NCBI GenBank assembly: GCA_964626265.1
Contig: CAZVCG010000004.1
Location: forward strand, 5,713-69,712
Reading direction: 5' to 3'
Origin: an uncultured Rhodospirillaceae bacterium
GTDB taxonomy: Bacteria > Pseudomonadota > Alphaproteobacteria > UBA9219
Length of the DNA: 64,000 nucleotides
The translations under genes were made by a program, and so were the position numbers. Positions 16,091-55,576 of this stretch are shown in pieces. Positions within the stretch are counted from its first letter, which is position 1, and each line of letters begins with the position of its first letter. The notes beneath the pieces were generated by a model. It saw nothing but the letters and a program-made list of their open reading frames with translations. It was not told the origin of the DNA and made no database searches.

Positions 16091-16765
16091 ATGTCCCAAC
16101 GTAGAATTCTTCTTACTCCCGACATCCTTTTGCAGGCCTACGCAGCGGGAATATTCCCGATGGCTGAGCATGCCATGTCGCAGGAGTTGCGTTGGTTCGA
16201 CCCGCCTCTACGCGCCGTCATTCCGCTGGATCACCGATTTCACGTCCCTCGCAGGCTCCGCCGCACGATCCGCCAACAGCCCTATAATATCCGCTTGAAC
16301 ACGGCCTTTGGCGAAGTCATCCGCTGCTGCGCCGCGCCTACACAGGAACGTTCCGTGACATGGATCAACCGCGAGATTATAGGGCTTTATACGACGCTAC
16401 ATCACCGCGGATTCGCGCACAGCGTCGAAGTCTGGGATAGGCACGAACTCGTCGGCGGTCTTTACGGCGTCAGTCTCGGCAGCGCCTTTTTCGGCGAGAG
16501 CATGTTCAGCCGCCGACCGGACGCAAGCAAAATTGCTCTTGTATATTTGGTTGCGCTGCTGCGTGACTGTTCCTTCAAATTACTGGATACGCAATTCCAG
16601 ACGGATCATCTGGCGCAATTCGGGACATTGGAGATCACGCGCGCCAATTATCAGCATCAACTGTCCAAGGCGATCAAAACGCAAAACAAGCTTGCTTTGC
16701 CCGAAAATTCCGACTGGGATCACTTGGTGGCTTCGCTTTTGCAGCCCGTAACCCACAAATCGTAA
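16091..16765 (+). CDS. aat: Leucyl/phenylalanyl-tRNA--protein transferase
   Basis: GIFPM motif and L/F-transferase fold; 224 aa. Confidence 0.9.
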   Translation: MSQRRILLTPDILLQAYAAGIFPMAEHAMSQELRWFDPPLRAVIPLDHRFHVPRRLRRTIRQQPYNIRLNTAFGEVIRCCAAPTQERSVTWINREIIGLYTTLHHRGFAHSVEVWDRHELVGGLYGVSLGSAFFGESMFSRRPDASKIALVYLVALLRDCSFKLLDTQFQTDHLAQFGTLEITRANYQHQLSKAIKTQNKLALPENSDWDHLVASLLQPVTHKS

Positions 16766-17100
16766 ATCGGATGTTCCATCGCGGACAGGGCCGGACTGGA
16801 CGCGAACATCCATCCCTTGAAAACGCCGGATTCCACCGATCCGGGCTTTATTTCGCTTACTTCCAGAAACGCCGCTGCTTCCGGTGTTTCCTCGGGCGGC
16901 GCGACGCGACAGGCGCGAACCGTGATGATAAGCGTGCCGAACTTAAAAGGTTGCTCGATGGGAACGTTGATCTCTTCGACGCGTGCCGTGATTTTGTCCA
17001 ACACTCTCAATACAGCCAAAGGCCTATCTTCGGTCGGCGCAGAGGCGCGAACGTCTCCCGCAGCGATAGCCAGCAAAAATACGATGAGGATACGCCGCAT
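16720..17100 (-). CDS. DUF2155-family secreted protein
   Basis: Signal peptide; LAVLRVLDKITARVEEINVPIE..FKFGTLIITVRAC ... GWMFASSPALSAMEHPIYDLWV matches the alphaproteobacterial DUF2155 pattern. Its 3' end overlaps aat convergently by 46 nt. Confidence 0.6.
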   Translation of the reverse strand: MRRILIVFLLAIAAGDVRASAPTEDRPLAVLRVLDKITARVEEINVPIEQPFKFGTLIITVRACRVAPPEETPEAAAFLEVSEIKPGSVESGVFKGWMFASSPALSAMEHPIYDLWVTGCKSEATK

Positions 17101-18023
17101 TATGGCTTTGCCGGTTCCGGTGGGGTTGCCGTCGGATCGTGTGGCGCAGGCAAGGTTACAGGGGGCAAAACGGAGATATTCGGCGGCGGTAAGTTGTTAA
17201 TATCAGAAGGCGCTGCAGCGTTTTCGGAATCCGTTTTCTGGGATTCGCGGACGGGTTCTTGTTCAGGTTTTGGCGGCACAAGAATCTGTTTTTCTTCCAC
17301 GGGTTTGGAAGGCTGCAAAGTGGATATGATTCCGTCTAAAGATCCCGTTGATGTGGCGGGCGCTATCTTGGCTGGCGCAGGCGCGGCCTTAGCTGGCGCA
17401 GACGGAACAGGAGGTGCCGGCCTTGGCGCAGGCGCGATCGCAGGGGCAGGTTGAGGCGTCGGAACGAAGGATTCGGCGGGCGCTGGAGAAGCCGTAACGG
17501 CAGGCGGAGACGCCGCCCCTATTGAAGAGCCGCTTTTCGATTGCGCGCCATTCCCGTTCTCGGATTTTTTTGATCCGTAAATCAGCTGGCCGATCAAATC
17601 GTCGAGTCGCATCGGCGATTGCGTATGCGTTATTCTTCCCGTTCCGTCCGTTTTGATGTTCTCTTCGTCCACGCCTACTTCAAGCGACATGTACTTGCCG
17701 CCCAAAAGACTCTCGGACGCGACCATGGCAATCGTATCGAGCGGCAATATGATATTGGGCAACAAAGTCATGTGTACGTCGACTTTATATTGATTTGGGC
17801 CTGGTTTAGTGACAAGTTCCAGATTCGATATGGAACCGACTTTGACGCCGTTCATCTTTACGTCCGTTCCTTCTTTTAGACCATCGACCTTGGGAAAATA
17901 AGCGCTGACCGTATAGCCCTGCACTTTCTGCAAATCGGCGCTCGAATAAGCAAAAACAAGAAACACGCCGGCGACAATAAGCACGACTGCGCCGAGCACG
18001 GTTTCAATTGCATTGCGTCCCAT
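17100..18023 (-). CDS. MlaD-like MCE-domain protein with Pro/Ala-rich C-terminal extension
   Basis: N-terminal TM plus MCE domain (ETVLGAVVLIVAGVFLVFAY...YTVSAYFPKVDGLKEGTDVKMNGVKVGSI), followed by a long PAPAP low-complexity tail. Confidence 0.75.
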   Translation of the reverse strand: MGRNAIETVLGAVVLIVAGVFLVFAYSSADLQKVQGYTVSAYFPKVDGLKEGTDVKMNGVKVGSISNLELVTKPGPNQYKVDVHMTLLPNIILPLDTIAMVASESLLGGKYMSLEVGVDEENIKTDGTGRITHTQSPMRLDDLIGQLIYGSKKSENGNGAQSKSGSSIGAASPPAVTASPAPAESFVPTPQPAPAIAPAPRPAPPVPSAPAKAAPAPAKIAPATSTGSLDGIISTLQPSKPVEEKQILVPPKPEQEPVRESQKTDSENAAAPSDINNLPPPNISVLPPVTLPAPHDPTATPPEPAKP

Positions 18024-18525
18024 AGATCAGCTCCTCGAATGGCTTTGGCTTTAACAAGAATGAATCGTCATCTCCTATTTGCCACCAAACATGGTTAACG
18101 GCAAATCCTTTGGAGCCCCATGGGCTCTTTCGTCGCGCATTCTTTTTTCGTGGTGCGGATTCGATGAGGATTCGGTGACACAAGTTTGCCTTGATATTTT
18201 TCATTCGGCAAGATTCTGAAACAATCGGAACTGAAATAATCACAGGAATTATTCGATGTTCTTACGCGAATTCTCGGAAGCCCATAATTGCCCAAATATA
18301 CGAAAATTATAGGGATAGCCCATCAGTACCGTGCATGAAACGCCTCAAAAACGTTCATGAGCGACTTTAATAACTGCCAAGAATAAACCTGATTATTGTT
18401 ACGGAGAGGGAACAATGGGAGAGAATTTGGGGAGAGAAAGGTGTGGATTGTGAATAAGTAATTCTTTATGCATACCATATTTTGTGGCATATTCAGACGT
18501 AACCGCATGATCTTGTGGATAACTT

Positions 18526-20604
18526 ATGCCCATCGCCGCCCCCGAGTCCTGGTCCAACGAAGCCGTTGACGCGTTTTCCGACGCTTTTTATGATGCCAAG
18601 CCATTGAAATTACAGCCTGTTGAAGAAAACACGCTTCCATCTTGGCTATGGTTAAAGCGACCTGCTGATAATCGCGTTGTTAACGAATCAAGTATTTACC
18701 AAGTTATCGAACGCGTCGCCGCCTCGGCCGCTTATCTCGGCTGGAAAAAAGGCCTCTGGCAGGACGAATCCGAAGCCCGCGCCTTTTACGACGACGTCAG
18801 CTATATGCTCACGCACCGCATGATCGCGCTTGAGCCAAAGGATATGAAATTGTTGGGCGTTGACTGGGCGTATGGAACGACAACCCATTCACCATCACAA
18901 ACAAAAACTTCGCATTTCTCTGCAACCCACACCATCACCAACACCGCAATAGACGCCATCATCAGCGGCACGGAACCTGAGCAGAGGACCAATTGGCAGA
19001 GGTTTCTGCGCGGCTCCAAAGAGGCCAAGCCGCTAACATTGAAATTCGCGGATACGGCACAGGAATGGGGAACAGCGGGCGCTTCGGCGACGCAGGCCTC
19101 CGGTGATAATGCTCCCCGGCTTGCCATCGATCTGTTCAAATTCCTGCGCGAGGACGGCTCTCTGGCCCTCACGGTGCTTCAACATGCCGTACGGCTCTCC
19201 GTTCTACTTCTTGAATTGCATTATGAAGCTCTTTCGATCTCGAACGATCCCGAGCGCAAGCTAGCCATCGGTTATGTCAACCTCTCCCCGCTCCTTATGG
19301 CCATGGGCCATCCCTACGACAGCGCCATCGCCCGCTCTACGGCCGCCGCCTTAAGCGCTATCATCACCGCAGAAGCAGTCATTACGTCATCGGAAATCGC
19401 CGCGACGTTCGGTCCTTGTCACGCCTTTGCCGACAACCGCGAAGCCGCGCTGCGCGCCCTGCGCAACCGCCACCGCGCCGTCTATGGTGAGCGCAACGAC
19501 TATGAACACCTCTCCATCCTCCCCTCCCCCCTCGACGTTGACGACGGCGCCGACCTTGTTCTTCTTGCGGCAGCGCGACGTTCTTGGGACGAAGCCATCG
19601 CCGAAGTCCAGAACCACGGACTGCGCCATTTGCAGCTGACCGCGCTCTTTAATGCGCAGGTTTTCATACCCTTGCTGGATTGTTCATCGCAGGGCATCGA
19701 GCCGGAACGCCACCTCGTTCGTCAGCAATCCTTGGGACCCGAAACGTTCCGGCGCGTGTTGAACCCGGCTGTGGCCAAAGCTTTGCGTATCGCCAAACTC
19801 GATGTCGCCGATATCAAGGCCATTACCGATTATGCCGTCGGCTATCACACGCTTGTAGGAGCGCCAGCTATCAGCCATGACGCTTTGCGCGCCAAAGGTT
19901 TCGATGGCCCATCACTTGAACGTTTGGAATCCTATCTGCCGCATGTCAGCCATATCCGTCAGGCCTTTACGGTATGGATTTTGGGTGACGCATTCTGTCG
20001 CGAGAGCCTGAATATCGACTCCCCCGATTTGCTCGACCCGCGCTTCGACCTTTTGAAGCACATAGGTTTCAGCGAAAAAGACATCGCCGTGGCCAACGCT
20101 TTCTGCTGCGGCAAAGGAACTGTGGCAGGCGCGCTTGAGTTACCCGAAAGACTAGCAAAAGCGTTGGATCTTTCTCTCCTTACGCCAGACGCCATGATCC
20201 GCATGGCGGCGGCCGTGCAAAGCATGATTATGGGCGACGTTGGCTTGACGATTGCGCTGCCTGCGACGGCCTCCATGGACGATCGCGAAAACCTGTTCCT
20301 GTCGGCATGGATGCAGGGATTGAAAAGCGTTACGTTGACGTTCGAGCGCAAGTTCGCGTTGCAAGGACATGCACACGATCATGCGATGGACAAGCACGAA
20401 CGCCGCGTTCAGCAGCGCAAACTTTTACAAAGGAAAATATTGCAGCCGCCCGTGCCGATTCCTTCGCACAAACGCGCATCGCTGCACATGAAAGTTCCCG
20501 CCCACGCATCAAAGCCCCTCGCAAAACACAAAGAAAGAGCGCATACCCGAGCCGTGAGCCTCAAACGCAGCGCGGCGAAGGTGATGCAGACACGGGTGAA
20601 GTGA
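18526..20604 (+). CDS. Class II ribonucleotide reductase (NrdJ) paralogue lacking recognisable catalytic-cysteine motifs; possible pseudo-enzyme
   Basis: Several blocks align with NrdJ/RNR: IAAPESWSNEAVDAFSDAFYDAK, ERVAASAAYLGW...FYDDVSYML, AVRLSVLLLE, KLAIGYVNLSPLLMAMGHPYDS, GLKSVTLTFERK. The NPCGE/SNLCxE thiyl-radical motif is not found; the aligned site reads DNAPRLAID. Confidence 0.6.
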   Translation: MPIAAPESWSNEAVDAFSDAFYDAKPLKLQPVEENTLPSWLWLKRPADNRVVNESSIYQVIERVAASAAYLGWKKGLWQDESEARAFYDDVSYMLTHRMIALEPKDMKLLGVDWAYGTTTHSPSQTKTSHFSATHTITNTAIDAIISGTEPEQRTNWQRFLRGSKEAKPLTLKFADTAQEWGTAGASATQASGDNAPRLAIDLFKFLREDGSLALTVLQHAVRLSVLLLELHYEALSISNDPERKLAIGYVNLSPLLMAMGHPYDSAIARSTAAALSAIITAEAVITSSEIAATFGPCHAFADNREAALRALRNRHRAVYGERNDYEHLSILPSPLDVDDGADLVLLAAARRSWDEAIAEVQNHGLRHLQLTALFNAQVFIPLLDCSSQGIEPERHLVRQQSLGPETFRRVLNPAVAKALRIAKLDVADIKAITDYAVGYHTLVGAPAISHDALRAKGFDGPSLERLESYLPHVSHIRQAFTVWILGDAFCRESLNIDSPDLLDPRFDLLKHIGFSEKDIAVANAFCCGKGTVAGALELPERLAKALDLSLLTPDAMIRMAAAVQSMIMGDVGLTIALPATASMDDRENLFLSAWMQGLKSVTLTFERKFALQGHAHDHAMDKHERRVQQRKLLQRKILQPPVPIPSHKRASLHMKVPAHASKPLAKHKERAHTRAVSLKRSAAKVMQTRVK

Positions 20605-55499: not shown

Positions 55500-55576
55500 T
55501 GGTCGGGGCGCCGAGATTCGAACTCGGGACCTCTAGTACCCAAAACTAGCGCGCTACCAGACTGCGCTACGCCCCG
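55500..55576 (-). tRNA. tRNA-Pro (anticodon UGG)
   Basis: Reverse complement folds as a cloverleaf: acceptor CGGGGCG/CGCCCCG, D-arm GCGC-AGTCTGGTA-GCGC, anticodon arm CTAGT-TTTGGGT-ACTAG (UGG), T-arm CCGAG-TTCGAATC-TCGG, and an encoded CCA. Confidence 0.85.

What the first reader, a model, noticed from the sequence alone, without database searches (positions are those of the whole stretch)
18526..20604. Full-length but apparently catalytically dead paralogue of B12-dependent ribonucleotide reductase (NrdJ-like pseudo-enzyme)
The 692-aa product aligns block by block with class II RNR: N-terminus IAAPESWSNEAVDAFSDAFYDAK versus NrdJ IEVPAGWSQVATDVLAQKYFRK; ERVAASAAYLGW...FYDDVSYMLTHRMIAL versus the RNR F.RVA.AIA...GW...FY.L....KFLPNSPTL block; AVRLSVLLLE; KLAIGYVNLSPLLMAMGHPYDS versus R.IGLGVMG.ADALI.LGIPYDSEEA; and the C-terminal GLKSVTLTFERK versus GLKGVTVYRDGS. 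These consensus strings are recalled from memory, not taken from a database. At the position expected for the thiyl-radical cysteine motif (NPCGE in class II, SNLCLE in class I) the sequence reads DNAPRLAID, and no C-terminal CxxC redox pair is evident. It is far shorter than the ~1200-aa alphaproteobacterial NrdJ. A conserved-fold RNR relative without the radical chemistry would be a regulatory or structural pseudo-enzyme, possibly a nucleotide sensor. Its function would be new.
Basis: partly seen in the sequence, partly recalled or inferred. Interest (0 to 1): 0.7.

Follow-up and report, generated by a model that had tools for sequence, protein, structure and literature searches.

The report
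Conserved catalytically dead class II RNR
This gene makes a shortened copy of a vitamin B12-dependent ribonucleotide reductase, the enzyme that makes DNA building blocks. The copy has lost every part needed for the reaction, yet a whole bacterial family has kept it for a long time, so it probably does a non-enzymatic job. Meanwhile these cells make their DNA building blocks with other reductases.

Summary
Confirmed: window 18526-20604 (+) is an intact 692-aa open reading frame. It is clearly a relative of class II (AdoCbl-dependent) ribonucleotide reductase (RNR). Pfam finds the class II N-terminal and barrel domains, NCBIfam finds the vitamin B12-dependent RNR family PRK07562 (E 9e-105), and the AlphaFold model matches Rhodobacter sphaeroides NrdJ (7b9p) at Z 33 over 593 residues. 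All 25 members of its family lack the finger loop that carries the radical cysteine and the glutamate (NPCSE in full-length relatives). They also lack the beta-A strand region with the first redox cysteine, carry Ala where the beta-F redox cysteine should be, and have lost the C-terminal zinc-finger/cysteine-pair region. So the protein cannot carry out ribonucleotide reduction. It is not a pseudogene:
- 21 of 24 genomes in the organism's family keep it as an intact ORF.
- Family members share the deletion boundaries, invariant family-specific residues and a basic C-terminal tail, even though synonymous sites are saturated.
- pN/pS is about 0.4-0.6.
- It sits where sister families keep a full-length NrdJ, so it is that gene, degraded in place, not a paralogue.
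The genome makes deoxyribonucleotides with a complete class III NrdD and its NrdG activase; related genomes use NrdD and/or a class I alpha subunit. Its real job is unknown. A non-catalytic binding or regulatory role is the best guess, but it is untested.

The parts
18526..20604 (+). Compact NrdJ-like pseudo-RNR gene (692 aa incl. stop codon)
   Evidence: ORF; Pfam/NCBIfam; structure
18532..18816 (+). Class II RNR N-terminal domain (Ribonuc_red_2_N), residues 3-97; aligns to 7b9p residues 41-178
18907..19107 (+). Family-specific segment (about residues 128-194) replacing roughly 340 residues of the NrdJ N-terminal barrel half; ends where the finger loop is deleted
19105..19131 (+). 'DNAPRLAID' (residues 194-202): site of the deleted finger loop (NxCxE) and of strand beta-F, where the invariant redox Cys of class II is replaced by Ala196
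19186..20346 (+). Kept C-terminal half of the RNR barrel (residues 221-607; Ribonuc_red_lgC profile 255-458; aligns to 7b9p 518-895); carries family-invariant Cys298, Cys491 and the CC pair 527-528
20425..20604 (+). Disordered, conserved basic C-terminal tail (residues 634-692) with a family motif like 'SxRxA-KP-KATxRxVSLKR'; replaces the C-terminal Zn-finger/Cys-pair region of NrdJ
   Evidence: pLDDT <50; alignment; cols 1365-1392
17100..18023 (-). MlaD-domain protein; part of the conserved neighbourhood (aat-DUF2155-MlaD-[NDUFA12]-nrdJ-like) shared with homolog loci and with the full-length NrdJ locus of sister families
16720..17100 (-). DUF2155 protein, conserved neighbour
16091..16765 (+). 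Leucyl/phenylalanyl-tRNA-protein transferase (aat), conserved neighbour

Best explanation
The gene encodes a conserved, catalytically inactive RNR-fold protein (a pseudo-NrdJ). One family of bacteria, probably Alphaproteobacteria, derived it from its ancestral long class II (AdoCbl-dependent) NrdJ, in place in the genome.

What it lost: the finger loop carrying the thiyl-radical Cys and catalytic Glu, the beta-A region with one redox Cys, the beta-F redox Cys (now Ala), and the C-terminal zinc-finger/Cys-pair re-reduction region.

What it kept or gained: the class II N-terminal domain, the C-terminal half of the barrel with its surrounding helices, a new ~70-residue segment, and a conserved basic disordered tail.

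It does not make deoxyribonucleotides; the cell uses class III NrdD and/or a class I RNR for that. It has been kept under strong purifying selection, so it has a non-catalytic job. My best guess is a binding or scaffolding role (a partner protein, a nucleic acid through the basic tail, or a small ligand at a remnant pocket), possibly linked to nucleotide metabolism.

Shown: fold, homology, loss of catalytic residues, conservation and selection, in-place origin, other RNRs present. Inferred: that it is non-catalytic in vivo and that it binds something. Untested: what it binds.
For: - RNR/class II homology: (Z 33.2 vs R. sphaeroides NrdJ 7b9p, 593 residues aligned, rmsd 2.7).
- Catalytic elements missing: the finger loop (NxCxE, with the radical Cys and Glu) is absent in all 25 family members (columns 562-571). 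The beta-F Cys (29/29 in full-length relatives) is Ala/Gly/Val/Met in the compact family. The beta-A Cys region is deleted (column 253, P0026 199-311). The C-terminal Cys/Zn cluster is absent (columns 1365-1392; no PF12637 in precomputed Pfam).
- A conserved family, not a pseudogene: 24 homologs of 669-746 aa share the architecture. It is monophyletic (SH-aLRT 100). It is present in 21 of 24 sampled genomes of its family. Invariant family-specific residues, e.g. Cys298 where full-length relatives have Tyr/Phe, and a conserved tail motif. pN/pS about 0.4-0.6 with saturated dS. Confident fold (pLDDT 83, pTM 0.82).
- Positional ortholog: sister families in the same order carry full-length NrdJ at the same MlaD-NDUFA12 locus. 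No full NrdJ or separate N-half gene exists in G000.
- Other RNRs do the catalysis: a complete NrdD with MCCR finger loop and RVMGY glycyl motif, an NrdG-like protein, and a class I alpha (PRK09102 type) in related genomes.
Against: - No experiment shows loss of activity or any function; inactivity is inferred from residues that are invariant in the family.
- The AlphaFold model cannot show whether the retained half-barrel forms a pocket or how the missing strands are compensated.
- One relative genome (G011, 92% complete) shows no RNR other than this protein. If that absence is real rather than an assembly gap, it would be awkward for a purely non-catalytic reading. I think an assembly gap is more likely.
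Confidence: 0.78

Rival explanations
1. A recently broken, decaying remnant of NrdJ (pseudogene) with no function.
For: All catalytic residues and large parts of the enzyme are lost.
Against: - The ORF is intact in 21 of 24 family genomes over distances where synonymous sites are saturated.
- Deletion boundaries are shared by all members, and the clade is monophyletic.
- Family-specific invariant residues and a conserved tail motif.
- pN/pS about 0.4-0.6.
Confidence: 0.05
2. A nucleotide (NTP/dNTP) sensor that keeps an allosteric site and regulates dNTP supply, for example by binding NrdD, a class I RNR or a regulator.
For: - RNR large subunits carry allosteric nucleotide sites.
- The protein is conserved and co-occurs with working RNRs.
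Against: - There is no ATP-cone.
- The beta-A-to-beta-C stretch, expected from RNR structural knowledge to hold loop 2 of the specificity site, is deleted. That site location is inference, not tested.
- The conserved gene neighbourhood shows no RNR-related neighbours.
Confidence: 0.2
3. A cobalamin (AdoCbl) binding or sequestering protein that keeps the NrdJ B12 site.
For: It descends from a B12-dependent enzyme.
Against: - G000 has no cobalamin riboswitch and only sub-threshold B12-binding domains, so it is probably not B12-reliant.
- From known class II RNR mechanism, the AdoCbl site must sit next to the finger-loop Cys, and that region is deleted.
Confidence: 0.05
4. Still catalytic, through trans-complementation by a separately encoded half (like split NrdJa/NrdJb) or by an unknown chemistry.
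For: Split class II RNRs exist (PMC9669993).
Against: - No N-half-barrel or finger-loop gene anywhere in G000.
- All radical and redox cysteines are gone.
- A working class III NrdD is present.
Confidence: 0.02

Closest known systems
Long alphaproteobacterial class II NrdJ (NCBIfam PRK07562; e.g. Rhodobacter sphaeroides NrdJ, PDB 7b9p/7b9q)
   Same: Same fold: the class II N-terminal domain plus the C-terminal half of the barrel superpose (Z 33.2). Best sequence hits. Likely its ancestor.
   Different: About 500 residues shorter. It lacks the beta-A region, the finger loop, the beta-F Cys and the C-terminal Zn-finger/Cys region. It has a new segment and a basic tail. Not an enzyme.
Thermotoga maritima class II NrdJ (1XJE/3O0N) and class I R1s (E. 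coli NrdA, human RRM1)
   Same: Same RNR alpha/beta barrel superfamily (Z about 27).
   Different: Those are catalytically active and keep the full barrel, finger loop and redox pairs.
Herpesvirus catalytically inactive RNR large-subunit homologs (HCMV UL45; MCMV M45/vIRA)
   Same: An RNR large-subunit homolog that lost catalytic residues but is kept for a non-enzymatic role (PMC5469499, PMC12845177).
   Different: Those are viral class I R1 homologs working in host signalling (RHIM, RIP1/RIPK3). This is a bacterial class II-derived protein of unknown role, and the resemblance is only in kind.
Split class II RNR (NrdJa/NrdJb)
   Same: Class II chain missing parts of the canonical single polypeptide.
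   Different: In split NrdJ the two chains together form a working enzyme. Here no complementing chain exists, and the catalytic loop itself is gone.

Membership tests
Class II AdoCbl-dependent RNR (NrdJ), as an enzyme | RNR alpha/beta barrel fold with the class II N-terminal domain | tested here: met
   Pfam PF02867 + PF08471; VIA Z 33.2 vs 7b9p
Class II AdoCbl-dependent RNR (NrdJ), as an enzyme | Finger loop with thiyl-radical Cys and catalytic Glu (N-x-C-x-E; NPCSE in relatives) | tested here: not met
   Columns 562-571 have no residue in any of the 25 compact members
Class II AdoCbl-dependent RNR (NrdJ), as an enzyme | Redox-active Cys pair on strands beta-A and beta-F | tested here: not met
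   beta-A Cys column deleted (col 253); beta-F Cys (29/29 in full-length) is Ala in the query and A/G/V/M in the family
Class II AdoCbl-dependent RNR (NrdJ), as an enzyme | C-terminal re-reduction Cys pair / TSCPD zinc finger | tested here: not met
   Columns 1365-1392 absent in the compact family; no Cys in the tail
Class II AdoCbl-dependent RNR (NrdJ), as an enzyme | AdoCbl binding and NDP/NTP reduction activity | not testable with these tools
   Needs purified protein
RNR large-subunit pseudo-enzymes (e.g. HCMV UL45) | Homology to an RNR large subunit with catalytic residues lost, yet kept under selection | tested here: met
RNR large-subunit pseudo-enzymes (e.g. HCMV UL45) | Defined non-catalytic function (binding partner or signalling) | not testable with these tools
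   No interaction data; binding prediction not run
Split class II RNR (NrdJa/NrdJb) | A second chain supplies the missing catalytic parts | tested here: not met
   No further NrdJ-homologous region in G000 at E<=1

The most novel reading that the evidence does not exclude
The compact pseudo-NrdJ is a dedicated regulator of the cell's working RNRs or of dNTP homeostasis. It would act by binding a working RNR (NrdD or a class I alpha) or a nucleotide through its kept half-barrel or its basic tail. That would make it the first described bacterial RNR-derived pseudo-enzyme with a regulatory role.
Probability: 0.2. Interest if true: 0.8.

Novelty: new variant of a known kind. Interest (0 to 1): 0.5.

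Why it matters
RNR is the only de novo route to DNA precursors, and its large subunit is one of the most conserved enzymes known. A lineage-wide family of bacterial RNR large subunits that has lost the radical chemistry, yet is kept under strong selection at the ancestral locus, is an example of an essential enzyme turning into a pseudo-enzyme inside a cell. Such cases are well known in kinases and in herpesvirus RNR homologs, but I found none described for bacterial class II RNR (paper searches). If it regulates the remaining class III or class I RNRs, it would be a new layer of dNTP control. If it binds something else, it would be a new use for the RNR fold.

Tried and rejected
Considered and rejected:
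- An ordinary compact NrdJ: the catalytic triad and redox pairs were checked and are absent.
- A split NrdJ with a partner elsewhere: the genome holds no second piece.
- A pseudogene: rejected by conservation and pN/pS.
- Frameshift or misread as the cause of the basic C-terminal tail: the tail is conserved across the family.
- A riboswitch or cobalamin-control element upstream: none found.

Searches that found nothing useful:
- No RNA-seq holder was found: this is not evidence on expression.
- Papers: no description of a catalytically dead bacterial class II RNR family. Class II C-termini and split NrdJ are discussed in PMC9669993, and the RNR phylogeny in PMC9531940.
- The ESM Atlas search returned NrdJ clusters plus 585-aa and 321-aa barrel-only clusters, not followed.

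Not run:
- Binding prediction (complex prediction), because no binding is claimed.
- Cys298/491/527/528 proximity, which could not be measured without model coordinates.

Other checks:
- An NDUFA12 gene, present next to the gene in homolog loci, is absent in the window. This is minor.
- The organism's taxonomy is not named by the tools. 'Probably Alphaproteobacteria' rests on the MAG names of homologs and on the class-wide long NrdJ.
- Claims about G024 and G080 (unpublished genomes) are not used beyond tallies.

Full report
What is there. Window 18526-20604 (+) is an intact 692-aa ORF.
- Pfam finds Ribonuc_red_2_N (residues 3-97) and Ribonuc_red_lgC (224-451, profile 255-458/523).
- NCBIfam's best hit is PRK07562, the long (about 1222-aa) vitamin B12-dependent RNR typical of Alphaproteobacteria (E 8.8e-105, protein 194-607).
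- In PDB, R. sphaeroides NrdJ (7b9p) aligns over residues 41-178 and 518-895 of its chain, leaving about 340 NrdJ residues without a counterpart.
- An AlphaFold model built with a 25-sequence family alignment is confident (pLDDT 83.4, pTM 0.82; C-terminal 634-692 disordered). It superposes on 7b9p at Foldseek TMq 0.72 and at VIA Z 33.2, rmsd 2.7 Å over 593 residues. It also matches T. maritima NrdJ and human/yeast/E. coli R1 at Z about 25-27.

What is missing. I aligned the query, 24 homologs of the same length and 30 full-length class II RNRs.
- Full-length class II members carry an invariant finger-loop motif N-x-C-x-E (NPCSE; the thiyl-radical Cys and catalytic Glu). That whole loop is absent from all 25 compact proteins (columns 562-571; one search shows 'HTCPxxGRINASNPCSEYMFLDDTAC' in full-length versus 'SGD-NAPRLAID' in the compact family).
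- The beta-F redox Cys, 11 columns after the loop Cys and invariant in full-length proteins (29/29), is Ala196 in the query and A/G/V/M elsewhere in the family.
- The beta-A region carrying the other redox Cys (column 253) is deleted, together with most of P0026 residues 199-311.
- The C-terminal region that in NrdJ carries the Zn finger and Cys pair used for re-reduction (P0026 ~978-1195; PMC5704485, PMC9669993) is replaced by a short, conserved, basic, disordered tail.
The protein cannot do radical ribonucleotide reduction (inference from the established class I/II mechanism).

A conserved family, not a pseudogene.
- The search for homologous proteins returns 24 proteins of 669-746 aa at 42-57% identity with the same architecture, from metagenome-assembled genomes named as Alphaproteobacteria.
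- They form one clade (SH-aLRT 100) with shared deletion boundaries.
- They carry family-specific invariant residues, e.g. Cys298 where full-length relatives have Tyr/Phe, plus invariant Cys491 and a near-invariant CC pair at 527-528.
- They share a C-terminal motif of the form 'KP-KATxRxVSLKR'.
- Among 41 relatives of the window's genome, the compact ORF is intact in 21 of 24 genomes of its family.
- Between the window gene and homologs, synonymous sites are saturated (dS >2.8, even within the genus), while pN/pS is about 0.4-0.6 and a whole ~700-codon ORF persists. This is long-term purifying selection.
- The three loci examined share a gene neighbourhood: DsbA, AroQ, AccB, AccC, Aat, DUF2155, MlaD, NDUFA12 and then the compact gene.

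Origin. In sister families of the same order, the full-length NrdJ (811-1089 aa) sits at the same place, right after NDUFA12 (G031) or near MlaD (G026). In a class-wide sample of 301 genomes, the long 1200-1380-aa NrdJ is common (over 160 genomes), and the compact form appears only in the window's family. The compact gene is therefore the positional ortholog of the lineage's class II NrdJ, cut down in place in one family. It is not a paralogue: the window's genome (G000, 1.93 Mb, 99.8% complete) has no other class II or class I large subunit, and no fragment anywhere that could supply the missing half in trans.

Who makes dNTPs.
- G000 encodes a complete class III NrdD (670 aa; MCCR finger loop, RVMGY glycyl-radical motif, Zn-binding CxxC cluster) with an NrdG-like activase beside it.
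- Other members of the family carry NrdD and/or a 613-632-aa class I alpha subunit of type PRK09102.
- G000 also lacks a heme-copper oxidase, has no cobalamin riboswitch and only sub-threshold B12-binding domains. This hints at an anaerobic, B12-independent lifestyle, which would remove the need for a B12-dependent RNR (inference).
- One exception: G011 (92% complete, 320 contigs) shows no RNR other than the compact protein. I treat this as an assembly gap until shown otherwise.
- DNA matching the gene is found in hot-spring metagenome runs.

How it most likely works. The direct evidence goes as far as this: a constrained, non-catalytic protein with the RNR class II N-terminal domain and half of the barrel. 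The best-supported reading is that it has become a pseudo-enzyme with a binding role. The kept barrel half, the new segment with invariant residues, and the basic tail are candidate interaction surfaces. Possible partners are a protein (conceivably a working RNR), a nucleic acid, or a small ligand. This binding role is inference.

From RNR structural knowledge (not tested here), the specificity site's loop 2 lies in the N-terminal barrel half that is deleted, and there is no ATP-cone. A cobalamin-binding role is unlikely, because the AdoCbl site must lie next to the lost finger loop and the genome shows little B12 use.

Comparison and novelty. The protein shares the fold of class II NrdJ (closest: R. 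sphaeroides NrdJ) but fails every defining catalytic feature tested. It is therefore an RNR-superfamily member, not an NrdJ enzyme. By kind it resembles herpesvirus RNR large-subunit pseudo-enzymes such as HCMV UL45 (PMC5469499), which kept the fold for a non-enzymatic role, but it is bacterial and class II-derived. My paper searches found no description of this bacterial family. I rate it a new variant of a known kind (pseudo-enzyme from an essential enzyme), of moderate interest. The decisive tests are biochemical: activity, ligand binding and partner pull-downs. A knockout needs a cultured member of the family.

Noticed in passing
window 18526 (start of ORF); family profile positions 1-29: The window protein lacks about 29 N-terminal residues present in most family members (the 'xRxFT' start shared with full NrdJ); a same-genus homolog also starts late. 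This may be a lineage trait or a start-codon issue.
   Followed up: partly
genome G011 (same family): A 92%-complete MAG in the same family shows no NrdD, no NrdB and no class I alpha, only the compact pseudo-NrdJ. Either this is an assembly gap or the organism lacks a recognisable RNR.
   Followed up: partly
G000:C32:4651-6465 (L003): A complete class III NrdD (MCCR finger loop, RVMGY glycyl motif, C-terminal Zn CxxC cluster) with an NrdG-like activase next to it; no heme-copper oxidase in the genome.
   Followed up: yes
window 17100-18023 (-): MlaD-domain protein with a long Pro/Ala-rich C-terminal extension; a conserved neighbour of the pseudo-NrdJ.
   Followed up: no
window 17950-18525: The NDUFA12-family gene found between MlaD and the compact gene in homolog loci (L007, L009) is absent here (tblastn).
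   Followed up: yes
window 55503-55576 (-): tRNA gene (Rfam RF00005).
   Followed up: no
ESM Atlas search: Clusters of 585-aa and 321-aa 'RNR barrel domain-only' proteins in Pseudomonadota are structurally close. They may be other truncated RNR-derived families.
   Followed up: no
class-wide sample: Long 1200-1380-aa NrdJ (PRK07562 type) is present in more than half of the sampled genomes of the class, which shows how common that long form is.
   Followed up: no
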